64,000 bases of DNA from assembly GCA_045578365.1 (NCBI GenBank), contig JAZNKC010000033.1:3009-67008 (forward strand), given 5' to 3'. This document shows, one piece after another, positions 18,466 to 38,413 of this stretch. The translations under genes were made by a program, and so were the position numbers. Numbering within the stretch: the first letter of the stretch is position 1; each line of letters begins with the position of its first letter. Source of the stretch: Ructibacterium sp. Lineage in GTDB: Bacteria > Bacillota > Clostridia > Monoglobales > Monoglobaceae. Under the pieces are notes generated by a model that was given only the letters and a program-made list of their open reading frames with translations, had not been told where the DNA came from and made no database searches.

Positions 18466-19455
18466 ATGAAGCAAGTACGCTGTGATTTGGCGGTAGAAGC
18501 AAGAGAAATGCTCACCGAATTACAAGGGGAGTCCTATCAGATACCCGGAGTCAAAATCAATGAAGAAACGGTAGATGGCTATATCCAGATTACCAAGGTG
18601 GAAGTTCTGGATGATGAGGGTGCCAGAGAACTGGGAAAAGAAATCGGGACGTATGTAACCGTTGAGATGCCTAGCCGGTTTTATGGACAGCAGAAAATCT
18701 ATGAACAGATGTGCCAAACCTGTGCCAAGGTGCTCAAAGAAATGACGGAGAAATTTTTACCCTCAGAAGAGGAAACTGTTTTGGTGGTAGGACTGGGAAA
18801 CTGGAATATTACCGCCGATGCACTGGGGCCCAAGGTGTTGAGCTCCCTAATGATAACCAGACATTTGAAAGAGTATATGCCGGATGAAATTGACGAGGGG
18901 GTAAGACCGGTTTGTGGTATTACACCGGGAGTTCTGGGGCTTACTGGAGTAGAAACAGGGGAGATTGTTCGGGGGATTGTAGAACGGGTTAGGCCATCCT
19001 TGGTAATTGCGATTGATGCACTCTGTTCCAGAAAAATTGAGCGTTTGAATACCACCATTCAATTTTCCGATACCGGTATTACACCGGGCGGCGGTGTTGG
19101 AAACCAAAGACAGGCAATTACCCAAAAAACATTGGGGGTTCCTGTTATCGCCATTGGTGTGCCCACCGTTGTTGATGCGGCAACCATTGCCAGCGAATCT
19201 ATGCATCGGGTGATATTGAAGGTAAAGGAACACGCACAGGCAAACAGTGAATTTTATCGTTTTCTGCAAGAATTGGAGCAGACGGAACGCTATGAATTGG
19301 TGCGGGAATCCATACGCCCGGCCTTTGGAAATTTCATTGTGGCACCCAAAGAGGTGGATGCCATCATTGATGATATTTCGGATGTCATTGCAAACGGCAT
19401 CAATATTGCTTTGCATAAAGGAATTGGGCTTGAGGATATCGATCGTTATATCTGA
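18466..19455 (+). CDS. gpr: Spore germination protease GPR
   Basis: RCDLAVEA, VVGLGNWNITADALGP, IAIDAL, IGVPTVVDA; divergent from rpsT; AAGGAG RBS. Confidence 0.95.
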   Translation: MKQVRCDLAVEAREMLTELQGESYQIPGVKINEETVDGYIQITKVEVLDDEGARELGKEIGTYVTVEMPSRFYGQQKIYEQMCQTCAKVLKEMTEKFLPSEEETVLVVGLGNWNITADALGPKVLSSLMITRHLKEYMPDEIDEGVRPVCGITPGVLGLTGVETGEIVRGIVERVRPSLVIAIDALCSRKIERLNTTIQFSDTGITPGGGVGNQRQAITQKTLGVPVIAIGVPTVVDAATIASESMHRVILKVKEHAQANSEFYRFLQELEQTERYELVRESIRPAFGNFIVAPKEVDAIIDDISDVIANGINIALHKGIGLEDIDRYI

Positions 19456-19476
19456 TACCTCAAACCCAATAATATT

Positions 19477-20841
19477 TTAGTTTCTTAAGCTGTGAATCGG
19501 TGCCGGAATCCTGCCTCCGCGTGCAATGAACGCTTCGCTGGAATAGGGATGTACCGGCATTACCGGAGCAGAACCCAACAGACCACCAAATTCGATATGA
19601 TCCCCAATCGTTTTGCCCATGGCGGGGATGATACGGACTGCGGTGGTTTTTTGGTTAATCACGCCGATTGCCATCTCGTCTGCAATGATTGCAGAAATGG
19701 TGGATGCAGGGGTATCCCCGGGAATTGCAATCATATCAAGACCGACAGAGCAAACACAGGTCATTGCTTCTAACTTATCCAGATGTAATGCACCACATTC
19801 TGCCGCTGCAATCATCCCGGCATCTTCGCTGACAGGAATGAATGCACCACTCAAGCCGCCAACAGAACCGGATGCCATTACACCGCCTTTTTTCACGGCA
19901 TCATTAAGGAGAGCCAGGGCGGCGGTAGTCCCGTGGGTTCCGCATTTTTCAAGACCCATTTCCTCAAGAATGTAGGCAACGCTATCACCAACCTCAGGGG
20001 TCGGCGCAAGGGATAAATCCACGATGCCAAAGGGTACGCCCAGCTCTTTGGATGCTTCCTGTGCCACAAGCTGACCCATACGGGTGATTTTGAAGGCAGT
20101 CTTTTTGATGGTTTCAGCAAGAACGCTGAAATCCTTGCCCTTGATTTGTTCCAGAGCACATTTAACTACACCGGGTCCGCTGACACCAACATTGATGACA
20201 GAATCACCTTCGCCGACGCCGTGGAAGGCACCTGCCATAAAGGGGTTGTCCTCCACAGGGTTTGCGAAAACAACCAACTTTGCACAACCCATAGAATTAT
20301 CATCCTTGGACATTTCTGCAGTTTTTACGATGATTTCACCCATTTGTTTGACAGCATCCATATTGATGCCTGCCTTGGTAGTTGCAACGCCCACCGAGGA
20401 GCAAACCCGACTGGTGGAACACAGCGCTTCAGGAATCGAACGGAGGAGGATTTCATCGCCTTTGGAAAATCCTTTGTGTACCAAAGCAGAGAAACCGCCA
20501 ATAAAGTTGACGCCGGTTTCTTGTGCAGCTCTGTCCAATGTTTTGGCAAAGGCAACATAGTCAGTGGCATCGCTTGCACCGGCAACCATTGCAATCGGGG
20601 TAACGGAAATCCGTTTATTGATAATGGGGATTCCGTAACGACGGCTGATAGATTCGCCGGTTGCTACAAGGTTTTCTGCATAGCGGGTAATCTTGTCATA
20701 AATTTTATCACAAGCAACCTTGGCATCACGGTCAGCGCAATCCAAAAGAGAAATTCCCATAGTAATGGTGCGGATGTCCAGATGCTCATCACGAATCATT
20801 TGAATTGTTTCAACGATTTCATTGGGATTGATATTTAGCAT
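19477..20841 (-). CDS. UPF0210/DUF711 PFL-like family protein
   Basis: [44 protein letters not shown]. Confidence 0.9.
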
Positions 20842-20866
20842 AGTAGAAAAGTCCTTTCAAACTGGT

Positions 20867-21136
20867 TTAGATTCTGTGCATAGAATTAAAAATATCTTCG
20901 TGCTGGATACGGATTTCAACACCCAGCTCTTTTCCAAGCTGTTGCATAGAATCTGCTAACGCGGCGAAATCACATTTACATTTTTCAAGGTCAACCAACA
21001 TTACCATTGTAAAAATGTTTTGCACAATGGTCTGGGTGATATCCAGAATATTTACTTCATTCTCCGCCAGGAGAGTACTGGTTTTTGCAATAATACCGGA
21101 CTTATCACAGCCCATAACTGTTACAACTGCACGCAT
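20867..21136 (-). CDS. ACT domain protein (UPF0237)
   Basis: VVTVMGCDKSGIIA..NILDITQT..QHEDIFNSMHRI; usual partner of DUF711. Confidence 0.9.
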   Translation of the reverse strand: MRAVVTVMGCDKSGIIAKTSTLLAENEVNILDITQTIVQNIFTMVMLVDLEKCKCDFAALADSMQQLGKELGVEIRIQHEDIFNSMHRI

Positions 21137-21261
21137 AATGGATCCTCCAAATTTGTTTTTCGAAATATTTTGCCTATATTATACTCTTTTTGAAAAATGA
21201 TGTCAATCAACGAAACTATGAAAAATCAAGAAAAGAGAAGGAAAAAGCGGGCATTTTCAAT

Positions 21262-21295
21262 AAAAAAAGCGATGAACTTTCGTTCATCGCTTTTT
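21262..21295 (-). terminator. Intrinsic terminator of hpf
   Basis: AAAAAAAGCGATGAAC-TTTC-GTTCATCGCTTTTT. Confidence 0.8.
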
Positions 21296-21306
21296 GAATG
21301 TCAGAT

Positions 21307-21840
21307 CTATTTGACGGTTTCAATCAGGGCATAATCGCCGTCTTTTCTTTTGTATACGATGTTGGTTTCCATCGTATCAGGATTGGTAAAGATAAAGAAG
21401 TCGTGATTCAACATATTCATTTGCAGGATCGCCTCTTCCACAGACATGGGTTTTGCGGAGAAGCGCTTTACCTTAACAATGCGAAATTCCTCATCTTTTG
21501 CTTCTGAATCATCGCTGAAATCGATGTTATAGGATTCAATTTCAGTATCCCGCAGTCGCTTTGCCAATTTTGTTTTATTCTTGCGAATCTGCCGGTCAAT
21601 GTTATTTAAGCAGACATCGACTGCAGCTAAAAGTTCGCGATCGCGAGCCTCGGCGCGAATCAGGAAACCTTTGTAGGGGAAGGTAATTTCTACAACCATA
21701 TGCTCACGCTGTTCGTCAATCAGGATACGACATTCCGTGTCATCATGGAAAAATTTGCTTAGCTTTTCAACCTTGCTCAGAACTTTTTCCTTGCTGGAAT
21801 CCGCCAAATCAACCTTTTTGCAAATAATGTTGTACTTCAT
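21307..21840 (-). CDS. hpf: Ribosome hibernation promoting factor (long HPF)
   Basis: RQIRKNKTKL, KPMSVEEAILQMNMLNHDFFIF, VYKRKDGDYALIE. Confidence 0.93.
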   Translation of the reverse strand: MKYNIICKKVDLADSSKEKVLSKVEKLSKFFHDDTECRILIDEQREHMVVEITFPYKGFLIRAEARDRELLAAVDVCLNNIDRQIRKNKTKLAKRLRDTEIESYNIDFSDDSEAKDEEFRIVKVKRFSAKPMSVEEAILQMNMLNHDFFIFTNPDTMETNIVYKRKDGDYALIETVK

Positions 21841-21988
21841 ACACACGCCTCCTGTCTTTTTGGTTAAGATTAACTAAATAGACTGTTTAAGTCTACTTAA
21901 TCTGTTTATATTATACAATGAAAAGTGAAATATTTCAATGCTTTTTTTGCAACATTTTTGGAAGAAACTCTTGTTCAAACTGCATAAG

Positions 21989-22019
21989 AAAAACGCTATC
22001 GCATATGTGATAGCGTTTT
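21989..22019 (-). terminator. Intrinsic terminator of trkAH
   Basis: AAAACGCTATCGCA..TGATAGCGTTTT hairpin right after the trkH stop. Confidence 0.7.
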
Positions 22020-22023
22020 ATGG

Positions 22024-23466
22024 TTAAAACTTACGCCAAGTCTCCTTTGTGAAAAGCAAAAGAATGGGGAACAGCTCTAAGCGACCGGCAAGCATATCAA
22101 AAATTAAGACAAGCTTACTTCCTGCCGAAAAAACGGAATAATTTCCCAAAGGTCCAACCTGTTCCAGTCCCGGACCAATGTTGTTTAGGGTTGCTGCAAT
22201 TGCAGTAAAGTTGGTAATCAGGTCCAACTCATCAAAACTAATCAGAAAAACGGATGCGGAAAAAATCAAAATATAAGCAACCATAAATACATTGATGGCA
22301 CGCACAACCTCGTGGGGCACTGATTTTCCGTCGTTTTTCAGTTTTCCCACCCGACTGGGATGGAGGAGGTTGGAGGTTTCTTTCCGGACCGTCTTAAACA
22401 AAGTAACAAATCTGGAAATCTTGATACCGCCGCCGGTACTTCCGGCACAAGCACCCACAAACATCAAAAGAACAAGAATGGTTTTAGAAGCCTGCGGCCA
22501 AAGGTTAAAGTCTCCGGTTGAAAATCCAGTGGTGGTTATCATAGACCCCACTTGGAATAATGCGTAACGGAAGGCTTCACTGATACCACTATACAGAGGG
22601 GTAATATTCCATGTAATGATCACACAAGCGCAAAGAATGACGACAAAATACCAACGAACCTCTTCCATGATCAGCGCACGCTTAAATTTTCTGCACAAAA
22701 GCAGGAAGTAAAAGGTGAAGTTTACCCCAAACAGAATCATAAAGACAGAGATCACCGTTTGAATATAGGGTGAGTATTCTGCCATACTGGCGTTTTTGAT
22801 ACCAAAACCACCGGTCCCGGCAGTTGACATTGCTGCAGCAACAGCGTCAAAGAGGGGCATTTTTCCTAACAATAGAAAAACAATTTGTAAAAGCGTCAGT
22901 GCAATATAAATGCCATAGAGAATTGCTGCAGTCGATTGTGTTTTAGGTACCAATTTTTCAACCTGTGGTCCCGGACTTTCCGCTTTCATCAAATTGGTAT
23001 GGGAACCACCTTTAAGGGGGGTGAGTACCAAAAGAAATACCAAAACTCCCATACCGCCAATCCAGTTGGTAAAGCTACGCCAGAAAAGAATACTTTTGGG
23101 GAGAATTTCTACATTGGATAAAATGCTTGCTCCGGTAGTAGTGAAACCGGAAACCGTTTCAAACAATGCGTCAATCGGGCTTGTAATTGCACCGGTTAGC
23201 AGAAAAGGAAGGGCACCCATAATACTGATAACAATCCAGCTTAAAGAGGTGATAACCAAACCTTCTTTCAAATAAAACACATTTTTCTCCGGTTTTTTTC
23301 TGGATAGCAAAAAGCCAATCCCGATACACAAAAGAATGGTAAGCAAAAATGCTTGCGTACACAGAAATTCCCGATATCCAAGGGAAACTGCCAGAGGAAG
23401 CCCCAGCAAAATTCCTTCATATAGCAAGACTTTGCCCAGCAGATAGAAAACCATAGCTATGTTCAT
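22024..23466 (-). CDS. trkH: Trk potassium uptake membrane subunit
   Basis: SGFTTTGAS, GGMG, TTTGF, GACAGSTGGGIK, NNIGPG, GRLE. Confidence 0.95.
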   Translation of the reverse strand: MNIAMVFYLLGKVLLYEGILLGLPLAVSLGYREFLCTQAFLLTILLCIGIGFLLSRKKPEKNVFYLKEGLVITSLSWIVISIMGALPFLLTGAITSPIDALFETVSGFTTTGASILSNVEILPKSILFWRSFTNWIGGMGVLVFLLVLTPLKGGSHTNLMKAESPGPQVEKLVPKTQSTAAILYGIYIALTLLQIVFLLLGKMPLFDAVAAAMSTAGTGGFGIKNASMAEYSPYIQTVISVFMILFGVNFTFYFLLLCRKFKRALIMEEVRWYFVVILCACVIITWNITPLYSGISEAFRYALFQVGSMITTTGFSTGDFNLWPQASKTILVLLMFVGACAGSTGGGIKISRFVTLFKTVRKETSNLLHPSRVGKLKNDGKSVPHEVVRAINVFMVAYILIFSASVFLISFDELDLITNFTAIAATLNNIGPGLEQVGPLGNYSVFSAGSKLVLIFDMLAGRLELFPILLLFTKETWRKF

Positions 23467-23478
23467 AGGGAGCCTCCG

Positions 23479-24837
23479 TTATTTCTTGACAATATCCTGA
23501 ATATCCTGTAACCCTCGGTTTAGCGTAACAACCACCACAGAGTCCCCTACTTGAATCCGGTCAGAGCCCTTGGGGATAATGATTCGGTTTTCTCGGGTAA
23601 TACAACATATCAGCAAATTGGGTTTTAATTCCAGTTCGGACAGTGTTTTCTCAGTTACGATAGAAGGAGTTTCTACCGTAAATTCCAAAGCTTCCACACG
23701 ATCATCCAGAATGTGATACAGAGTTTTGATCTTGTTACCAAATTCATTCTGGATAGAACGGATGTGCTGCAGAATGAAATCACAGGTGAGATATTTGGGA
23801 TAGATGACACTGCCAATGTCCAACCCTTCTAAAATATCATCAAATTCCAAACGATTGATTTTGGTAACCAATTTTGCATGGCTGAGCTTTTTTGCAAAGA
23901 GTGCAAGAAGAACATTTTCTTCATCCAGATTGGTGAGGGGCACAAATGCCTCGACAGACTCCAACCCTTCTTCAAGGAGCAGGTTTCGGTCTGTGCCATC
24001 TCCACAGAGAATATCGGCCTCCGGCAAAAGCTCTGCCAGAGTTTCGCAACGGTCGTGCTTTTGCTCTACAATACGCACCCGAATGTGATGACTGAGCAAA
24101 TCTTTTGCAAGATAATAACTGATGGTTCCGCCACCCACCAAAAGTGCATTTTTCACAGGGCGGTGAGAGAGGTGCAGCTTTTCAAAAAATGCCGTCGCCT
24201 GCTGGCTGGTAGCCAAAAAGGTAATTACATCGTCGGTTTGCAAAGTAAAGTCACCGGACGGGATGGTAACGCTGTCCCCGCGTTCTATGGCGCAAATCAA
24301 CACTCCGTTTCCAAACAGGTCGGGGAATTGTTTTAAGGAAATCCCATTTAATCCGGTTTCTTCGGTCAGACGGAATTTAATCAAGTTTGCCATACCGTCT
24401 GCAAAGGCATCAATTTGGATAGCAGCAGGAAAACGCAAAAGGCGAGAGATTTCCCGTGCGGTTGCAAGTTCCGGATTGATAATTGCAGAAATTTCCAACT
24501 GTTCCTTGGCAAATTCGATTTCCTTGCTATAAATAGGATTGCGCACACGGGCCACAGTGTTACATGCTGTAGCCTTTTTGGCGAATAAGCAACAAAGTAA
24601 ATTCAATTCATCAGAACCGGTAACTGCAATAAAGATGTCTGAGGTTTCAATGCCGGCTTCTGAAAGGACGGCAATGGAGGCACCGTTTCCTACGATTCCC
24701 ATAACATCCAATTCTTCAGTAATATGGCTTATCCGTTCAGAGTCAGTATCTACCACGGTGATGTTGTGTCCTTCATCAATGAGTTTGCGTGCCAAAGCTA
24801 CACCAACCTTGCCACATCCAACAATTACTATCTCCAT
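23479..24837 (-). CDS. trkA: Trk potassium uptake NAD-binding subunit
   Basis: Two RCK domains (IVGCGKVG; LVGGGTIS), GDGTD. Confidence 0.95.
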   Translation of the reverse strand: MEIVIVGCGKVGVALARKLIDEGHNITVVDTDSERISHITEELDVMGIVGNGASIAVLSEAGIETSDIFIAVTGSDELNLLCCLFAKKATACNTVARVRNPIYSKEIEFAKEQLEISAIINPELATAREISRLLRFPAAIQIDAFADGMANLIKFRLTEETGLNGISLKQFPDLFGNGVLICAIERGDSVTIPSGDFTLQTDDVITFLATSQQATAFFEKLHLSHRPVKNALLVGGGTISYYLAKDLLSHHIRVRIVEQKHDRCETLAELLPEADILCGDGTDRNLLLEEGLESVEAFVPLTNLDEENVLLALFAKKLSHAKLVTKINRLEFDDILEGLDIGSVIYPKYLTCDFILQHIRSIQNEFGNKIKTLYHILDDRVEALEFTVETPSIVTEKTLSELELKPNLLICCITRENRIIIPKGSDRIQVGDSVVVVTLNRGLQDIQDIVKK

Positions 24838-24953
24838 ACAATCACTTCTCCGTTTTGTGAAATTTATCCTTTATGCTATTATAACACTTTTTTTATAAAA
24901 GTCTATATAAAATATAAAAATAATCGGCGACCTCAAGGCCGCCGATTGCTGAA

Positions 24954-25289
24954 CTAACTGTTTTCCAATGCTTGCTCCAACCAGAACATACCAATATCAA
25001 ATGCTTTATATAAACCATCACGTTCTGCTTGGCGAACCAACTGAGAACGTTTTCCCTCGTTGGTTTTCAGCTCGATAATAACATGCTTTGCAATCTGCAA
25101 ATCTTCCAGCGGTTCTTGTTCATCAAGCCGGAAAATAACCACATATTTGTCTTCAGGGTTTCCATAATAAATGGTATTTCCACAACGCAATAACGGCTTT
25201 CCGTTGTAGGTGAGAAGCTGCTTTTCAGCGCTTTCCTCAACCTTTTTCTTTTTGGTTGCAGTCTGCTTCGTCGTTGTTTTTTCAGCCAT
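24954..25289 (-). CDS. Conserved hypothetical protein
   Basis: LTYNGKPLLRCGNTIYYGNPEDKY..GLYKAFDIG; AAAGGTG RBS and upstream TTGAAA-17-TATGAT. Confidence 0.7.
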   Translation of the reverse strand: MAEKTTTKQTATKKKKVEESAEKQLLTYNGKPLLRCGNTIYYGNPEDKYVVIFRLDEQEPLEDLQIAKHVIIELKTNEGKRSQLVRQAERDGLYKAFDIGMFWLEQALENS

Positions 25290-25384
25290 TTCCATCACCT
25301 TTCTTTTTTGCAAGAAACTGTCATACCTATTTATCATAACAGATACCGGTAAGAATTTCAAGTAAAATTTTTATTTGTCTGCGA

Positions 25385-26593
25385 TTACGCCTTGGTTTCT
25401 AATAATTTTTCCATCAAAAGATGTCCAAGGGGTTGGTAAATCCCTGTTTCCTTGGCAGCAGTCTCGGTATAAACTCTCTCTTTTGCAGGGGCATTCTCCT
25501 CACTGCGGAACAGGATATAAGGGATTGGGTCAGAAGTATGTGTCTTGATTGCCAGGGGTGTAGGATGATCTGGCATTACCAAAATATGATAATCTTCGCC
25601 GGATTCTTCTAAATAGGAAAGAAGAGGAGCTACAATCTTGCTGTCAATACACTCGATGGATTTGATTTTGTTGTCAATTTCTCCACGGTGTCCTGCTTCA
25701 TCCGCGCCTTCCAGATGAACATAAACAAAATCGGCACCATTCTTCAATGCGGTGATAGCCGCTTCTGCTTTTCCGTCAAAGTTGGTATGTACTGTTCCGG
25801 TTGCTCCGGGAACCTCAATGACATCCAGCTCTGCACATTGACCAATACCCTTAATCAAATCCACCGCAGAGATCACTGCGCCCTTAATGCCAAAACGAGC
25901 TTGGTATGTATCTAAATTCGGCTTGGTACCATTTCCCCAAATCCAGAGAGAGTTTGCCGGATGCAAGCCTTTTGCCATGCGGGCTTGGTTCACCGGATGA
26001 TCCTTTAAGATTTCGTAGCTTTTCTTCATTAAATTTAAGATGGTTGCATCCTTAGGCAGATATTCCCCAACCACGCGGTCGGAAATATCGTGGGGAGGAG
26101 TCAAAGAAAAAGCGTTCTCCTTGTTGTGCCAAACCATTAAATGCCGGTAACTGATTCCGCCAAAGAATTCATACTCGTCGGTCTTCAGCGCCTGATTGAC
26201 CGCATCAATCAGCTGATGCGCTTCTTCAGTAGTGATTTCGTCAGAGCTGTAATCTACCATTGTTTTTTCTGCATACGCAGGATCATCGGAAAGGGTTACC
26301 AGATTGGCACGGAAAGTGGTATCGGTTAAAACCAACGGAACGCCGATGGATGCCGCCTCCAGAGGAGAACGACCGGTATAATATTTTTGGGGGTCATAGC
26401 CAAAGACGGAAAGATTGGCAACATCACTTCCCGGAGGGAGATTGTCAGGGACAGTAGTAACCATTCCAAGCTCACCCTTGGCTGCCAAAGCATCAATATG
26501 CGGTTTTTTTGCTGCCTCCAACGGGGTTTTCCCGCCCAGGGCGGGAACAGGGGTGTCTGCCGCCCCATCCATCAAAACAACAATATATTTCAT
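25385..26593 (-). CDS. apgM: Cofactor-independent phosphoglycerate mutase (ApgM type)
   Basis: DGAAD..KTPLEAA, PGSDVAN, YTGRSPLEA, DEAGH, PDHPTP. Confidence 0.9.
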   Translation of the reverse strand: MKYIVVLMDGAADTPVPALGGKTPLEAAKKPHIDALAAKGELGMVTTVPDNLPPGSDVANLSVFGYDPQKYYTGRSPLEAASIGVPLVLTDTTFRANLVTLSDDPAYAEKTMVDYSSDEITTEEAHQLIDAVNQALKTDEYEFFGGISYRHLMVWHNKENAFSLTPPHDISDRVVGEYLPKDATILNLMKKSYEILKDHPVNQARMAKGLHPANSLWIWGNGTKPNLDTYQARFGIKGAVISAVDLIKGIGQCAELDVIEVPGATGTVHTNFDGKAEAAITALKNGADFVYVHLEGADEAGHRGEIDNKIKSIECIDSKIVAPLLSYLEESGEDYHILVMPDHPTPLAIKTHTSDPIPYILFRSEENAPAKERVYTETAAKETGIYQPLGHLLMEKLLETKA

Positions 26594-26738
26594 TTTCTTG
26601 CCTCCTGAATTCCATAAATATCAACAGAATTAGTATACTAAAATCCCCAAAAACTGTCAAGAAAAAATCTCATCAAAATACCGACCCTAATGCATGCAAA
26701 AGAGTCGGCATTCTGAGATATTAGGAAAAAGGAGAAAG

Positions 26739-27551
26739 CTATTGTGCGTTTTTGATTTGCAGACGCAATTTGTCCGCAATCATTGCGATAAACTCGGAGT
26801 TGGTGGGCTTTCCTTTGGAATTTGCAATGGTATAACCAAAGAAGGAGTTAAGGACCTCGGTGTCACCTCTATCCCAAGCGACCTCGATGGCGTGACGAAT
26901 GGCACGTTCTACCCGACTGGGTGTGGTGTTGAAATCTTTTGCAACCGTGGGATATAATTCTTTGGTAATGGAATTGATGATATCCAAATCCTCCACAACC
27001 ATCATAATAGCGTGGCGCAGGTATTGATACCCTTTGATATGTGCCGGAATCCCGATTTCGTGAATAATTTCGGTGACCATAGTTTCCATATCCTTGCTTT
27101 GGGACTTCTCATTCAGTCCGCGAATCTCCCCTGCACGAATTTCCTTGCCTTTTGTTGCAGTTTCGGAAGAAAACATACAGATGCGATCCATTAAAACTTC
27201 AAAATCCACCGGCTTTAACATAAAATATTCCGCACCAAGGGCAATGCTTTTTGCTGCAATACTGTCATTGAGAACTGCGCTTACAACCAGAACTTTGGGG
27301 CGTTTTGCCAAATTCAGATTCTGCAATCGTTCCAAGACGCCAATGCCATCAAGGTTTGGCATCACCATATCCAGAATCAATACATCCGGTTCGGTCATTC
27401 GTATCATACTAATCGCTTCATTTCCGTCGTAAGCCATTCCGACAATCTCGATTTTAGGATTTGCTTTCATATATCCGGAAAGAACATCCAAATATTCCCT
27501 ATTGTCATCAGCAATCAAAACCCTTGTCTTTGGTACCATTTGTCCTTGCAT
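26739..27551 (-). CDS. spo0A: Sporulation master regulator Spo0A
   Basis: Receiver domain plus [47 protein letters not shown]. Confidence 0.98.
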
Positions 27552-27602
27552 TTTTGTACACTCCTTTGTGAAATTTATCGTTTATTTTTTGTTGGTAAAC
27601 CA

Positions 27603-27632
27603 ATTATAAACTTAATTTACAAATTTTGTCAA
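27603..27632 (-). promoter_or_regulatory. sigma-A promoter of spo0A
   Basis: Minus strand TTGACA-18 nt-TATAAT. Confidence 0.7.
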
Positions 27633-27781
27633 TAGATTTTGCGAAAAAAATTGGAAAATTTTTACACAACTTGGATTTTACTTCCAAAAACCCCTTTTTC
27701 GACTTTTTTCAAAATAAATAGTGGTATCTTCGGAAATTCTATGGTATAATCGTAGAAGTCAAGGACAGAAGGAGAAGAAGT

Positions 27782-29008
27782 ATGAACTATCAGGAAGCGA
27801 TTCAATATATTCATCAGACACCAAAGTTCAGCAGAGAGCTTGGAAACCGTTTGCTTGAAAAATTATTACGTCTGTGTGGAAATCCGGAGCAGAACTTACA
27901 ATGTATTCATATTGCCGGAACCAACGGAAAAGGCTCCACCGCGGTGATGCTTTCCCGAATTTTAGAGGAAGCGGGGTATCGGGTTGGACTGTTTACCTCG
28001 CCTTATATCGAGCGCTTTAATGAACGGATTCAGGTGAACGGAACCCCGATTCCTGATGACGCGCTGGCGAAAATTATAACCACATTGCGGGAGTTAATAG
28101 AAACTCATGATGCACCAGTATCAGAATTTGCTTTGGATACTGCTGCTGCATTTCTTTGGTTTCAGCAACAAAATGTCGATTTTGTCGTTTTGGAAACCGG
28201 ATTGGGAGGGCGATTGGATGCGACCAATGTAATTTCCAAGAGCTTGGTGAGTGTGATTACCAATATCGGACTTGACCACACCCAATATCTTGGAAATACT
28301 TTAGAAGAAATTGCTACCGAAAAGTGTGGTATTATAAAAGAAGGTTCTCCAGTAGTGGTTTATCCTGTACAGGATGAAACTGTTTTTGCCACCATTCAAA
28401 AATGTGCTGACCCAAAAAAGGCAGAGGTATTTGTTGCGGATCTTCCCTGGAAGGGAAAAGCCTATTCCTTAGGACTACAAGGAGAGTTTCAGATTTATAA
28501 CGCCGCAACGGTGCTGAAAGTGATTGATATTTTAAGGGATTCCGGCATCTCTGTTTCAGAAACCGCAGTGGAAGAAGGGTTAAAAAATGCCCACAATCCT
28601 GCAAGGTTTGAACGATTTGGCGAACAAATCATCCTGGATGGTGCTCATAATCCTCAGGCAATGCAAGCCCTTTGTCAAACATTGCAAACTCTTGAAAAAC
28701 CGCTTTATTTTTGCACTGCAATGATGGAAGATAAGGATTACTTATCTTGCGTAAAAATCTTAAAAAACTACGCCAAAGGTGTTGTTGTAACAGAAATTCC
28801 AATGCCGCGATGTTGCTCGAAAGAATTATTGAGAGAAACATTTTCCAATCAGGGAGTGGAAGAAGTTGTGGCGGTGCAATCTCCTAAGGATGCAGTAGAA
28901 ACTGCACTTACTATGGCAGGGACGAATGGAATCGTCTGCGTGTGCGGCTCGTTGTACCTTGCCGGCGAATTAAGACCTTATCTAAAAAAACAAAAAGCAA
29001 ACCGTTAA
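27782..29008 (+). CDS. folC: Folylpolyglutamate synthase/dihydrofolate synthase
   Basis: IHIAGTNGKGS, FTSPY, ETGLGGRLDATN, LDGAHNP, CGSLYLAG. Confidence 0.96.
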   Translation: MNYQEAIQYIHQTPKFSRELGNRLLEKLLRLCGNPEQNLQCIHIAGTNGKGSTAVMLSRILEEAGYRVGLFTSPYIERFNERIQVNGTPIPDDALAKIITTLRELIETHDAPVSEFALDTAAAFLWFQQQNVDFVVLETGLGGRLDATNVISKSLVSVITNIGLDHTQYLGNTLEEIATEKCGIIKEGSPVVVYPVQDETVFATIQKCADPKKAEVFVADLPWKGKAYSLGLQGEFQIYNAATVLKVIDILRDSGISVSETAVEEGLKNAHNPARFERFGEQIILDGAHNPQAMQALCQTLQTLEKPLYFCTAMMEDKDYLSCVKILKNYAKGVVVTEIPMPRCCSKELLRETFSNQGVEEVVAVQSPKDAVETALTMAGTNGIVCVCGSLYLAGELRPYLKKQKANR

Positions 29009-29027
29009 TCCGGTTTGCTTTTTGTTT
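28988..29027. terminator. Bidirectional terminator (folC / recombinase)
   Basis: AAACAAAAAGCAAACCG-TTAATC-CGGTTTGCTTTTTGTTT. Confidence 0.8.
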
Positions 29028-29049
29028 ACATAACATTATTATGGAAACT

Positions 29050-30048
29050 TTATTCGTTTTCCTGCTGGGAAGGCGGTTTGATGCGAGAGAGGGGGTTGTT
29101 TTGCACAGCGCTCCGCATCTGGTCATTATTGATATGAGTATAAATTTCTGTAGTGGAGAGTTGCTTGTGACCCAAAATTTCCTGCAGGACACGAATATCG
29201 ACGCCCGCTTGGTGCATCAAGGTTGCCGCCGTATGCCGTAATTTGTGCGTGGTATATTTATGACTGTCAAGACCGATTTTCTTCACATATTTTTCAACAG
29301 TATATTGTACAGTTCTACGGGAAATACGCTGACTTCGTTCTGAGAGAAACAGAGCGTTTTTATCCCGTGCAGTCGGAGTTTGTTGATTGCGCACCGGCAA
29401 ATATGCTGCGATTGCAGACAGACATGCCTCATTGAGATAAATGGTCCGCTCTTTGTTACCTTTACCAATTACTACCAATGTATCGCCACGGATGTCTGTA
29501 ATGTTAATATTTACCAATTCAGCCAATCGCATACCGCAATTTAAGAACAGCGTGAGAATACAATAATCCCTTGCGGCATTACGATTTTCAACAGATTCCA
29601 AAAGGGAAATGCTGTCTTCTAATGTAAAGTGTTTGGGCAGCTGCTTGGTCATTTTTACAGATTCCAGTTCAGCTGCCGGATTTTCATCCAAAAGTTTTGC
29701 TTTGTTACATAAGTATTTATAGTAGGATTTCAAGGATGAAATTTTTCTTGAACGGGAGCCTGCGGTGTTGCCCCGGTGACGATTGAGATAATTCAGGTAT
29801 TCATAGAGCGTCTGTAAATCCACACGACGGAGCATAGAAACATCCACATTGTCAATCGGGATTTCAGAAAACTCTACAGAGGCATCTACAAAACCAAAAT
29901 AGAGATTTAAGAAACGATAAAAGGTTCTCAAATCATAAAAGTATTCGTCGGCAGTTTTTGCAGACTTTCCTTGAATGCTTTCAATATAAATCAAAAAGGA
30001 CGCCAAAGGCTCCGGAGCCCCGTGGTCCAAGGCTTTTGCTGGTTTCAT
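29050..30048 (-). CDS. Xer-family tyrosine recombinase, candidate chromosome dimer resolvase
   Basis: Intact catalytic set: GMRLAEL (R), GKGNKER (K), HKLRH (HxxR), LGH..STTEIY (H,Y); 332 aa, no arm-binding domain; housekeeping neighbours. Confidence 0.9.
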   Translation of the reverse strand: MKPAKALDHGAPEPLASFLIYIESIQGKSAKTADEYFYDLRTFYRFLNLYFGFVDASVEFSEIPIDNVDVSMLRRVDLQTLYEYLNYLNRHRGNTAGSRSRKISSLKSYYKYLCNKAKLLDENPAAELESVKMTKQLPKHFTLEDSISLLESVENRNAARDYCILTLFLNCGMRLAELVNINITDIRGDTLVVIGKGNKERTIYLNEACLSAIAAYLPVRNQQTPTARDKNALFLSERSQRISRRTVQYTVEKYVKKIGLDSHKYTTHKLRHTAATLMHQAGVDIRVLQEILGHKQLSTTEIYTHINNDQMRSAVQNNPLSRIKPPSQQENE

Positions 30049-30085
30049 AGGGTTTCACCTCTTTTTCGTAAAGCATCCTCTATTG

Positions 30086-30115
30086 TATTGCACAAAATTT
30101 TTATTTTGTGCAATA
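30086..30115. other. Candidate dif (chromosome dimer resolution) site
   Basis: TATTGCACAAAA-TTTTTA-TTTTGTGCAATA: perfect 12-bp inverted arms, 6-bp spacer, 38 nt upstream of the recombinase start, at the apparent GC-skew switch. Confidence 0.72.
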
Positions 30116-30132
30116 TTTAATCTTATTTATTT

Positions 30133-30161
30133 AGTATATCTTCTTTTTGATAACAATACAA
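30133..30161 (-). promoter_or_regulatory. sigma-A promoter of the recombinase gene
   Basis: Minus strand TTGTAT-17 nt-TATACT; places the palindrome in the 5' UTR. Confidence 0.55.
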
Positions 30162-30191
30162 GCATCTTTCTTTTACAGATTTTTTACAAAT

Positions 30192-30962
30192 TTACGGGGT
30201 CAAAAATTGCGGTACTTCTTCTGAGAAGCAGATTCTCTTTTGAAAAATATTTTGTAACGTGATTAAAAAGTTTTTATTCTTAACATTTTTAATTCCGTAC
30301 AAAACAATTTTTTCCGGAACCAAAATCACCAGCGTGCTGATGAGCATATCGTTTTCCTTTTCTGCCTCCTCGTCTATCTCTGGAAATTCATCCAGAAACA
30401 TTTGCTCGCATTCTGTGGTAATTTCCTGATAGGATTCATCATAAAAACGATACGAACCATTAGTATCTGCGACCACATATAATTGGCTGAGTCGGGATTC
30501 TTCCAATTCTACAAAATAATGCAACAAATCCAAAAACTCCCGATAGCTCTCTCTGGACAAATACGCTTCTACACAGTCCTCCAACAAATACGCCGCCTCT
30601 TTGCGGTATTCCTGCATACCAAAAAATGTAAAACCATCCAAATTGATGAAATTGGAAACTTCTGCCAAATCCATAAGACTGTCCTTAATAAAGCGGACAA
30701 AGGCTTCTTTCTCGCGGGAAAACTCCTGTAAAGCTAATCTCTTTACACCGTCAACTTCTTGACTTGACATCCCAACTGTATAAGCGGAAAGTTTTTGAAA
30801 CAGTATTTCTTCTCCATAGGTTTCGTGGAGCCATTTGGCAACACGATTCAAGGTTTCTTCTTTTTGGTGAGGTTTTACTTTCAAACAGTAAATTCCGTTT
30901 TCTCTTCTAAAATCGGAAAGATTTTTCTTTGAGACAATAACTATTTCCTCCAACGGATTCAC
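30192..30962 (-). CDS. ytxC: Putative sporulation protein YtxC
   Basis: INLDGFTFF, ESYREFLDLLHYFVE, DMLISTLVILVPEKIVL, TLQNIFQKRI. Confidence 0.8.
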   Translation of the reverse strand: MNPLEEIVIVSKKNLSDFRRENGIYCLKVKPHQKEETLNRVAKWLHETYGEEILFQKLSAYTVGMSSQEVDGVKRLALQEFSREKEAFVRFIKDSLMDLAEVSNFINLDGFTFFGMQEYRKEAAYLLEDCVEAYLSRESYREFLDLLHYFVELEESRLSQLYVVADTNGSYRFYDESYQEITTECEQMFLDEFPEIDEEAEKENDMLISTLVILVPEKIVLYGIKNVKNKNFLITLQNIFQKRICFSEEVPQFLTP

Positions 30963-30989
30963 CCTTCCTAATACTTTTATAGTACTATG

Positions 30990-31697
30990 TCACGGGGAAA
31001 CGCAGATTATACCTCCCAAATCCTGCAGAGGTTCCGGTGACAAGGCGATGTGCTTTCTTCCACTTCCTTTTGTTTCTTGCTTCAAAGATGCAAAGTAAGA
31101 GCATTTTTCGGGATTTCCATACCAAAACAACTGTTTGGTATCACCGCCACAAGCGCCACCAATAAAACCATAAGGGAACCCTTCTAAAGAAACCTCCCCT
31201 TTGGAAACTAAAATGGACTTGATTGGAATTTTGTTTGCAATAATTGTATTATGTATACCAATATCCTCTGTCGCAATGGTGTGTTCATCAAGAACCGCAA
31301 TATTGCATTTGCTGTACCCTTGATTGATATGTATGATAGAAAAATTGACTCCTTGATAATAATCGAGGAGTTTTTTGTCGGTATATTGGGTGTTGCAGAA
31401 AATATATCTGCCCACTTTTGCTACATTATATGCAGAATCTCCCGGATAGGTGTCTGTCAGGTTTTTTTCGCCGCAAATTAACTTGACGGTAGCCGGAAGC
31501 TGTTTGCGATAATACGTATAGCAGTCCGGTGGTGTAATGGCAAGATTGTTATCAAGAGAGTGAATCTGAATGTCCGGATGGGTAGAAATTGCACTTTTGA
31601 TGTTTGGGTAAGACATGCTAAAGACAATTTGATGCCCGCACGACTTCAAAGTGTCACACATTTCTTTTGATGCCTTGGGATTAACGACAAGAATCAT
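30990..31697 (-). CDS. DUF6873-like hypothetical protein
   Basis: HPDIQI, YPGDSAYN, NQGYSKC, GFPYGFIGGA; usual neighbour of ytxC. Confidence 0.7.
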   Translation of the reverse strand: MILVVNPKASKEMCDTLKSCGHQIVFSMSYPNIKSAISTHPDIQIHSLDNNLAITPPDCYTYYRKQLPATVKLICGEKNLTDTYPGDSAYNVAKVGRYIFCNTQYTDKKLLDYYQGVNFSIIHINQGYSKCNIAVLDEHTIATEDIGIHNTIIANKIPIKSILVSKGEVSLEGFPYGFIGGACGGDTKQLFWYGNPEKCSYFASLKQETKGSGRKHIALSPEPLQDLGGIICVSP

Positions 31698-37387: not shown

Positions 37388-38413
37388 TTATTGCTTTTCT
37401 GCTTCAGCCAGCATGTTTTCGATAAATATACCATACCCACGAGTTGGATCATTCACGAATACATGTGTCACAGCTCCCACAATTCGGCCATTTTGCAGTA
37501 TGGGCGAACCTGACATTCCCTGCACAATTCCTCCGGTTTTGCTCAAAAGCCTCTCGTCGGTTATTTTGATAATCATTCCCTTGGTGCTCTCGGTATCTTT
37601 GTTGATTTTTTGAATTTCCACAGAAAATTTTTCTACTTTCTCTTCCTCTACATTTGCCCAAATTTCTGCTGTTCCCTCTGTTACCTCTTCCCTTTTTGCA
37701 ACAGGAATCGGGGAGGTAGATATCATTCTAACTTCCTCTTTTTCTATCGTTCCTTTCAGTCCAACCGTGCTATTGCTTTGGACATCGCCGATCTTCCCTT
37801 TTCCCTCTGAAAAAACCGCGATCAGTTCACCAGGATTTCCCTTTCCGCCTTTTTGAACTGAAACCACATTGGCTTTCCACAAATCTCCGCCTGTAATGGA
37901 AAGTACTTCTTCTGTTGCATCAGAAATCCCGTGTCCTAATGCGCCAAAAGCTCCGGTTTCAGGGTTACAATAGGTGATGGTTCCGATTCCGGATGCGGCA
38001 TCCTTGATCCAGACGCCGATGCGATAATGTCCATCCTTATTAGAAAGTTCCGGTTTTACCTTACAGGAATCCGTCTTTCCGTTTCGGCGAAAAACGATAT
38101 TAATTACATTTTCTCCACGGTTGTTCACCACTTCTTCCAATTGTTTGGCGGATGCGATTTCCATGCCGTCAATGCTTTCAATGCGGTCACCGCTACGCAG
38201 TCCTGCATCTTTTGCAGGCGTATGCCGGTTGTTTTCATAATCCTCAACATCGGTGGTATCCACAATGGTTACACCTTTCATATCGAGTGTGACCCCAATG
38301 GTTTGTCCCATAGGAATCAAAAAAACTTCCTCGGCATATGCGGGAAAGTTGAAAAAAGAAAAAAACAGGGTCAAGAGCAGAAAACGAACACTCTTTTTCC
38401 TCAACTGATTCAT
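37388..38413 (-). CDS. spoIVB: Stage IV sporulation peptidase SpoIVB
   Basis: Signal peptide, PDZ, GIGTITY, GALGHGI, GGIVQGMSGSPILQNG, GAVTHVFVNDPTRGYG. Confidence 0.93.
   Translation of the reverse strand: MNQLRKKSVRFLLLTLFFSFFNFPAYAEEVFLIPMGQTIGVTLDMKGVTIVDTTDVEDYENNRHTPAKDAGLRSGDRIESIDGMEIASAKQLEEVVNNRGENVINIVFRRNGKTDSCKVKPELSNKDGHYRIGVWIKDAASGIGTITYCNPETGAFGALGHGISDATEEVLSITGGDLWKANVVSVQKGGKGNPGELIAVFSEGKGKIGDVQSNSTVGLKGTIEKEEVRMISTSPIPVAKREEVTEGTAEIWANVEEEKVEKFSVEIQKINKDTESTKGMIIKITDERLLSKTGGIVQGMSGSPILQNGRIVGAVTHVFVNDPTRGYGIFIENMLAEAEKQ

What the first reader, a model, noticed from the sequence alone, without database searches (positions are those of the whole stretch)
29050..30161. 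Candidate single-recombinase Xer/dif module: a lone tyrosine recombinase with a palindromic dif-like site in its own leader
Seen: an intact 332-aa Xer-type recombinase. 38 nt upstream of its ATG, between a sigma-A-like promoter (30133-30161) and the RBS, lies TATTGCACAAAA-TTTTTA-TTTTGTGCAATA, whose core is 11-6-11. Known: dif sites are 11-6-11. The right arm TTTTGTGCAAT matches the E. coli XerD arm TTATGTTAAAT at 8/11 positions. The inner AAAA-N6-TTTT pattern resembles the single-recombinase sites difSL (XerS) and difH (XerH), and difSL lies directly upstream of xerS. Inference: identical arms imply one protein binds both halves, so this may be a clostridial one-recombinase dimer-resolution system. 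I do not know of one characterised in this lineage. Binding in the 5' UTR could also autorepress the gene.
Basis: partly seen in the sequence, partly recalled or inferred. Interest (0 to 1): 0.85.

Follow-up and report, generated by a model that had tools for sequence, protein, structure and literature searches.

The report
Symmetric clostridial dif site with recombinase
A perfect 30-base palindrome sits just ahead of a recombinase gene near where this chromosome's replication ends, and the pair is likely a one-enzyme system, common in Clostridia, that separates fused daughter chromosomes.

Summary
Observation confirmed, except 'lone': the genome also has a RipX/XerD-type gene after spoIIM. 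The 12-6-12 palindrome (30086-30115) is unique in this genome and recurs beside orthologues across Clostridia, its two arms changing together (128 of 157 held-out deviations mirrored; shuffles 47). In seven relatives it lies 26 bp to 14.8 kb from the GC-skew peak, within 43 bp in three, one of them 66 kb from the gene; in this window it is 10 kb off. Three inovirus-like elements are flanked by arm-plus-6-bp repeats of it. Residue 245 tracks arm base 6 on both arms (115 of 120; independent-pair test not significant). In four near-complete genomes this is the only Xer-like gene found. Best reading (0.8): one recombinase binds both arms and resolves chromosome dimers; binding, recombination and FtsK control are untested. 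It works like XerS/difSL but fails XerS, XerC, XerD and XerA membership tests. Nine literature searches found no description, and the 2011 dif survey failed for Clostridium. This scan found the same system before on other DNA. New variant of a known kind.

The parts
29050..30048 (-). Xer-type tyrosine recombinase, 332 aa, catalytic R174 K199 H268 R271 H294 Y303 intact
30086..30115 (.). dif-type site, perfect 12-6-12 inverted repeat (28-bp core 30087-30114)
30104..30115 (-). promoter-side arm, predicted binding site of one recombinase monomer
   Evidence: binding inferred
30098..30103 (.). 6-bp asymmetric central region, predicted strand-exchange region
   Evidence: 0 of 75 central regions self-complementary; phage repeats in relatives end at its edge
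30086..30097 (+). gene-side arm, identical to the other arm
30133..30161 (-). weak sigma-A-like promoter (TTGTAT-17-TATACT, 8/12); would place the site in the 5' leader
   Evidence: (not listed); inferred
30056..30061 (-). ribosome-binding-site-like GAGGTG
   Evidence: sequence
29314..29316 (-). codon for R245, first turn of helix 244-257; covaries with arm base 6
29944..29946 (-). codon for E35, helix 30-50; weaker covariation with arm base 9
28988..29027 (.). 17-bp-stem terminator-like hairpin between the converging folC and recombinase genes
19000..31000 (.). GC-skew switch from positive to negative (terminus-like); raw maximum near 19712, slow decline across the site

Best explanation
The palindrome is likely this chromosome's dimer-resolution (dif) site, and the neighbouring recombinase likely binds both of its identical arms. 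Shown: the gene, the site, its conservation, the mirrored arm changes, the position at the replication-terminus skew switch, and phage-like insertions bounded by the site in relatives. Inferred: four monomers synapse two sister sites, cut at the edges of the 6-bp central region and add one crossover that turns a chromosome dimer into two monomers, as XerS, XerH and XerA do. The asymmetric central region would set the direction, as in Cre/loxP (established knowledge). Control by the genome's FtsK/SpoIIIE is assumed by analogy. In this genus the site may also repress the gene's own promoter. The RipX/XerD-type gene is probably not needed at this site.
For: Site beside orthologues: 95 of 115 loci including the training set; held out, 24 of 44 named genome loci against 0 of 34 distant Xer loci and 12 of 12 loci from two families outside the class. 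Mirrored arms: 175 compensatory cells against 60 shuffled in the 75 training sites (partly by selection); 128 of 157 deviations mirrored in 52 held-out sites, shuffles mean 46.7, maximum 69 of 2000. Position: 40.8-49.9% of the chromosome from dnaA in 9 of 9. Distance from the cumulative skew maximum 35, 26 and 43 bp in G110, G090, G112, where the gene is 66 kb, 14 kb and 0.2 kb away, 0.3 kb in G003. Exact canonical dif pattern in 109 of 251 phylum genomes but 1 of 23 with this family. Three inovirus-like records carry an exact arm-plus-6-bp repeat that diverges at the edge of the central region (0 of 300 shuffles each). R245 goes with C at arm base 6 on both arms in 115 of 120 pairs and is the top protein column for that base; 12 of 13 changes fall on the same branch, 0.76 expected, cross controls 0. 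R245 aligns four residues before XerD H225, which PMC5241119 places on the helix in the outer major groove. Only TIGR02225 match in G127, G156, G109, G169; 38 of 96 family genomes lack the RipX orthologue; symmetry is the same with and without it, 10.9 against 11.0 of 12. FtsK-gamma domain present.
Against: No binding or recombination data. In this window the site is 10.4 kb from the raw skew maximum, 10.3 kb in the 98%-identical relative (within its 5% plateau), 2.2 kb in G116 and 14.8 kb in G163, outside its plateau. The genome has a RipX/XerD-type gene, and in G091, G151 and L381 that gene lies within 3 kb of the module. No site was found near the gene in 20 of 115 and 20 of 44 loci; only some were followed up. 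G095 and G130 have a second hit at E below 0.01. G420 has both this module and a canonical dif 15 kb apart. The independent-pair test had only 4 well-supported pairs, all in the expected direction, p 0.125. 30 of 33 small viral records showed no exact second copy. The exact canonical pattern also misses 142 of 251 genomes, so its absence is weak evidence alone.
Confidence: 0.8

Rival explanations
1. The site is the dif site but is worked by two proteins in genomes that have both: this recombinase as a divergent XerC and the spoIIM-linked RipX/XerD on the other arm.
For: Own genome and 58 of 97 family genomes have the RipX orthologue. Databases name the protein XerC and its best NCBIfam score is XerC. 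The two genes are close neighbours in G091, G151 and L381.
Against: Both arms change together and both follow residue 245 of this protein. Likeness to the XerD arm is the same with and without RipX, 6.57 against 6.54 of 11. Among family genomes RipX is in 57 of 73 with spo0A and 1 of 23 without, so it follows sporulation, not the site. The protein is outside the XerC clade.
Confidence: 0.1
2. The palindrome is only an operator in the gene's leader, bound by the recombinase or another regulator, and is not recombined.
For: It lies between a promoter-like element and the start codon here and in most of the genus. PMC1914069 speculates the same for difSL.
Against: It also lies downstream of the gene (L049, L050, L082, L110, L117), over 1 kb upstream, or 10-66 kb away, and there it marks the skew peak. 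Phage-like elements are bounded by it.
Confidence: 0.04
3. Gene and site are the integration module of an old mobile element that prefers the terminus, not a housekeeping system.
For: Family members occur on 30 plasmid or chromid records, 5 of 6 fetched with a similar palindrome, and in viral records. A related sub-clade without the site occurs in genomes with canonical dif.
Against: Present in 97 of 151 class genomes, nearly always one chromosomal copy, among housekeeping genes here, opposite dnaA, and almost never with canonical dif.
Confidence: 0.04
4. The palindrome acts as an RNA hairpin (attenuator or stability element) in the leader.
For: Compensatory changes would also fit an RNA stem, and the scanner lists it as terminator-like on the + strand.
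Against: Only 8 of 900 cells are one-sided G-U-type changes against 175 two-sided. The element occurs in both orientations and far from the gene. It covaries with a DNA-binding helix.
Confidence: 0.02

Closest known systems
XerS/difSL of Streptococcus and Lactococcus (PMC1914069, PMC2965235, PMC5357621)
   Same: One recombinase gene with its site just upstream, at the terminus, in genomes without canonical dif; arms end in A-runs next to the centre.
   Different: Separate clade; 149 bits against the 267 cut-off; 332 against 356 aa. difSL is a 31-bp asymmetric site; this one is a near-perfect 12-6-12 repeat whose sequence drifts between lineages. Gene and site can be 66 kb apart.
XerC/XerD-dif (CodV/RipX-dif in Bacillus subtilis)
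   Same: 11-6-11 geometry, T..A-type central region, position at the skew peak, use by filamentous phages; highest HMM scores are XerC and XerD.
   Different: Identical arms instead of distinct XerC and XerD arms; both cut-offs missed; outside both clades; almost never with canonical dif.
XerH/difH of Helicobacter and Campylobacter (PMC5357621, PMC5241119)
   Same: Single recombinase, site near the gene, same fold.
   Different: Weak similarity (E 2.5e-17); difH arms are unequal. XerH was not in my tree.
Archaeal XerA/dif (PMC2958812, PMC5357621)
   Same: Single recombinase on an 11-6-11 site; best Foldseek hits.
   Different: 187 bits against the 220 cut-off; XerA needs no FtsK, whereas this genome has one.
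IMEX filamentous phages at dif (CTXphi, VGJphi, TLCphi; PMC5357621)
   Same: Small Rep- and Zot/pI-ATPase-encoding elements bounded by a full site and a site with one degenerate arm.
   Different: Here in Gram-positive hosts and at a symmetric one-enzyme site. PMC10061712 reports direct repeats around Enterocloster inoviruses; its main text names no recombinase.

Membership tests
XerS/difSL | Protein passes the XerS family model (NF003462) and groups with streptococcal XerS | tested here: not met
   149 against 267 bits; separate clade, SH-aLRT 99 each (quick tree)
XerS/difSL | 31-bp asymmetric difSL site | tested here: not met
   Symmetric 12-6-12 site; my site model scores difSL loci below 9 bits
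XerS/difSL | Site immediately upstream of the recombinase gene | tested here: met
   37 nt here; not universal in the family
XerS/difSL | One recombinase suffices | tested here: inconclusive
   Only Xer-like gene in 4 of 10 genomes checked and covariation on both arms; needs an assay
XerS/difSL | FtsK-dependent recombination | not testable with these tools
   FtsK-gamma domain present
XerCD/dif | Protein is a XerC or XerD orthologue | tested here: not met
   230 against 335 and 200 against 330 bits; outside the XerC/XerD clade
XerCD/dif | Site with distinct XerC and XerD arms, conserved XerD arm | tested here: not met
   Arms identical and covarying; 6/11 and 7/11 to the Firmicutes arms
XerCD/dif | Genome encodes both XerC and XerD and a canonical dif | tested here: not met
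   XerD-type only; best canonical score 15.5 against 38-43 bits; genome 89.6% complete
Xer/dif systems in general | Intact tyrosine-recombinase active site and fold | tested here: met
Xer/dif systems in general | Two 11-bp arms around a 6-bp centre, single copy | tested here: met
   second hits in 2 of 18 gene-carrying genomes
Xer/dif systems in general | Site at the replication-terminus skew switch | tested here: met
   26 bp to 14.8 kb in 7 relatives; 10.4 kb here
Xer/dif systems in general | Resolves chromosome dimers in vivo | not testable with these tools
   needs genetics
XerH/difH | XerH orthologue acting on difH | tested here: inconclusive
   Weaker match than XerD or XerA; XerH not in the tree
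Archaeal XerA/dif | Passes the XerA model (NF040815) | tested here: not met
   187 against 220 bits

The most novel reading that the evidence does not exclude
This is the missing chromosome-dimer-resolution system of most Clostridia: a separate one-enzyme Xer lineage on a fully symmetric, loxP-like site whose sequence drifts with the enzyme through a readable residue-to-base code (position 245 with arm base 6, position 35 with base 9). It is hijacked by gut inoviruses and carried on plasmids and chromids, while the retained RipX/XerD has moved to a sporulation-linked job.
Probability: 0.5. Interest if true: 0.78.

Novelty: new variant of a known kind. Interest (0 to 1): 0.64.

Why it matters
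The 2011 survey of dif sites gave no site for Clostridium beijerinckii and C. perfringens and sites 137-176 degrees from the skew switch for four other Clostridium genomes (PMC3025954 supplement), so the dimer-resolution site of this large group looks unresolved. This module gives a precise, testable candidate in about two thirds of the class genomes sampled. It also marks the terminus to within tens of bases in some genomes, names the landing site of gut inoviruses, and offers a natural set of recombinase-site pairs with different specificities. A symmetric site raises the question of how strand order and FtsK control are set without two enzymes or unequal arms. The mechanism class is known, and this scan has reported the system before.

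Tried and rejected
Canonical-dif pattern with 2 mismatches over 151 class genomes was at background level and gave no information; redone exact on a phylum sample. Polarised KOPS/SRS-like octamers (motifs recalled) were too few to judge and partly reflect G-rich skew. The careful tree did not finish; the quick tree was used, midpoint-rooted for drawing only, so no sister-group or donor claim is made. XerH and E. coli XerC/XerD were not in the tree. E248 against arm base 5 showed weak association and was dropped. The independent-pair test could not reach significance. No earlier notes on this genome. The supplement of PMC8136486, which traces XerC, XerD and XerS across Firmicutes, could not be read and may class this family; Table 1 of PMC1914069 was not shown. 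The name 'XerS-like' was rejected as a membership claim. Complex prediction was not used because it does not score DNA.

Full report
Observation. The window has an intact 332-aa tyrosine recombinase at 29050-30048 on the minus strand. It scores below every curated Xer cut-off: XerC 230 of 335, XerD 200 of 330, XerA 187 of 220, XerS 149 of 267 bits. The catalytic residues are present and invariant among 38 relatives, and the predicted fold (pLDDT 88.5) matches XerA, XerD and XerH. A perfect 12-6-12 palindrome lies at 30086-30115, 37 nt before the start. It is unique in the assembly and no leader shuffle of 20,000 matched it. Eleven other perfect palindromes with a 6-base spacer exist in the assembly, mostly terminator-like, so shape alone proves little. 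The promoter is weak (8/12). The gene is not lone: a 296-aa RipX/XerD-type gene follows a spoIIM-like gene on contig C64.

Conservation. Orthologues at E 1e-60 or better are in 97 of 151 class genomes. A matrix seeded on 40 palindromes, plus a rule admitting perfect palindromes, found the site in 95 of 115 loci, training set included. In held-out data it was in 24 of 44 named genome loci (Oscillospiraceae, Acutalibacteraceae, Clostridium and others) against 0 of 34 loci of distant Xer genes, and in 12 of 12 loci from two families outside the class. The arm sequence differs between lineages but both arms change together. In the 75 training sites 175 cells are compensatory against 60 in shuffles; this leans on my selection. 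In 52 new sites chosen by a matrix that scores the arms independently, 128 of 157 departures from consensus are mirrored, against a mean of 46.7 and a maximum of 69 in 2000 arm swaps. One-sided G-U-type changes are rare (8 of 900 cells), which fits a DNA dyad better than an RNA stem. No central region of 75 is self-complementary.

Position. The window's contig switches from positive to negative GC skew; the raw maximum is at 19712, 10.4 kb from the site. In nine chromosomes with known length the site (the gene, for G130) is 40.8-49.9% from dnaA. A covariance model run over 20 whole genomes (150 candidates scored in each) put its top hit within about 1.5 kb of the gene in 13 of the 18 that have the gene, and 3, 10, 14 and 66 kb away in four more. 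G095 has two hits, G130 a weaker second one, and the two genomes without the gene have nothing better than E 0.9. Nine of the 18 contributed to the model. The site is 35, 26 and 43 bp from the cumulative skew maximum in G110, G090 and G112; in G110 the gene is 66 kb away, so the skew peak follows the site and not the gene. It is 0.3 kb off in G003, 2.2 kb in G116, 10.3 kb in G023 and 14.8 kb in G163. An exact canonical Firmicutes dif pattern is in 109 of 251 phylum genomes but in only 1 (G420) of the 23 that carry this family. Seven genomes with a related sub-clade lacking the site all have canonical dif; six of these were in the tree. The pattern is strict, so absence alone is weak.

Evidence that the site is recombined. 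Of 80 viral records with a relative, I picked 33 small ones (4-10 kb); 27 carry the site. In three (L482, L500, L507) one arm plus the 6-bp centre is repeated exactly 5-7 kb away and diverges at the edge of the centre (0 of 300 shuffles each). Between the repeats lie a rolling-circle Rep in all three, a Zot/pI-like ATPase and small coat-like ORFs; none of the 17 ORFs I sent to Pfam was an integrase, though not every ORF was sent. This is the footprint expected of an element inserted by a host tyrosine recombinase, as at dif in Vibrio (PMC5357621, passages). The other 30 records showed no exact second copy and may be cut inside the element.

Evidence that this protein reads both arms. Across 120 protein-site pairs under 85% identity, arginine at position 245 goes with C at arm base 6 on both arms: 73 R with C/C, 42 non-R with non-C, 5 exceptions. 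Column 245 is the best of all protein columns for that base (0.74 bits; next 0.27). On a tree built without those columns, 12 of 13 changes at 245 fall on the same branch as a change at base 6, against 0.76 expected and 0 in cross controls; E35 with base 9 gives 4 of 13. The stricter independent-pair test had only 4 well-supported pairs, all concordant, p 0.125. I noticed the pattern by eye first, so it is a post hoc test. R245 starts helix 244-257 and aligns four residues before XerD H225, named in PMC5241119 (passages) as counterpart of XerH K290 on the helix in the outer major groove. RipX/XerD is not found in 38 of 96 family genomes (G100 left out), and in G127, G156, G109 and G169 (99-100% complete) this is the only TIGR02225 match, of 10 genomes checked. 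Site symmetry and likeness to the XerD arm do not depend on RipX. Among family genomes RipX is in 57 of 73 with spo0A and 1 of 23 without (kin are not independent).

Mechanism. Most likely (0.8) one recombinase binds both arms, two sister sites synapse, and a crossover in the 6-bp centre resolves chromosome dimers. Binding, cleavage, dimer resolution and control by the FtsK/SpoIIIE present here are inferred. Rivals: two-protein use with RipX (0.1), operator only (0.04), mobile-element remnant (0.04), RNA hairpin (0.02). Autorepression may be a side role in this genus.

Comparison. In a quick maximum-likelihood tree of 106 proteins the family and its siteless sub-clade form one group (SH-aLRT 99), apart from XerS (99) and from XerC/XerD (94-95). 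Rows taken as streptococcal XerS pass NF003462 and have a difSL-type site upstream. So it works like XerS/difSL but is not a member, and the database name XerC is not supported.

Literature. Nine full-text searches found no description. Seen: PMC3025954 passages and supplement rows: no site for C. beijerinckii and C. perfringens, four C. botulinum predictions 137-176 degrees and Anaerocellum 66 degrees from the skew shift. PMC1914069 passages and Discussion. Passages of PMC5357621, PMC2965235, PMC2958812 (no mention of clostridia in the main text of these three), PMC8138268, PMC5241119, PMC10061712 and PMC8136486. The last one's supplement was unreadable, and most subscription journals are not in the library. 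Earlier notes of this scan describe the same system in other genomes; I had reached my reading before seeing them, and they are not independent evidence.

Verdict. Real feature; new variant of a known kind; interest 0.64.

Noticed in passing
L001:6873-7763 (G000:C64): RipX/XerD-type gene after a spoIIM-like gene. No canonical dif or XerC partner was found, and in family genomes it tracks spo0A (57 of 73 against 1 of 23). Its substrate is unexplained.
   Followed up: partly
L296/L208 and L179 (G420:C92:28220-29258 and 43554): One genome has this module and a canonical dif 15 kb apart, plus XerC and XerD and a cluster of further recombinase genes on C60; possibly a replacement in progress.
   Followed up: partly
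L577, L579-L581, L585: Class genomes without this family carry longer, more distant recombinases with related sites upstream; perhaps a second one-enzyme lineage. 41 of 54 such genomes had no hit at E 1e-55.
   Followed up: partly
L573 (G651:C34): A gene passing the XerS model has a site 54 nt upstream that scores 21 bits on my model.
   Followed up: no
L209-L216: A tight sub-clade nested in the family lacks the site and occurs in genomes with canonical dif; function unknown, maybe mobile.
   Followed up: partly
L618-L623: Family members on plasmid and chromid records of Clostridium, Ruminococcus and others; 5 of 6 fetched have a similar palindrome. The large Monoglobus and Pusillibacter records may be chromosome pieces; the latter has phage-like genes right upstream.
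   Followed up: partly
L615:9001-9026: A tailed-phage-like record carries this site type next to an FtsK/SpoIIIE-like ORF.
   Followed up: no
G158 (single contig, 2.5 Mb): Neither gene nor site found, though 8 of 9 sampled members of its family have the gene.
   Followed up: partly
L507:7802-8606: The recombinase beside this prophage reads as two overlapping ORFs; may be a sequencing error.
   Followed up: no
window 26739-27551, 30192-30962, 37388-38413: spo0A, a YtxC-like gene and a spoIVB-like gene (the last by recall of the family) surround the module.
   Followed up: no
PDB chain 9i5v_14: Labelled ribosome-associated inhibitor RaiA but its first 300 residues match Xer recombinases.
   Followed up: no
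L371: A contig titled Vagococcus carries an Xer nearly identical to an Enterobacter one; contamination is likely.
   Followed up: no
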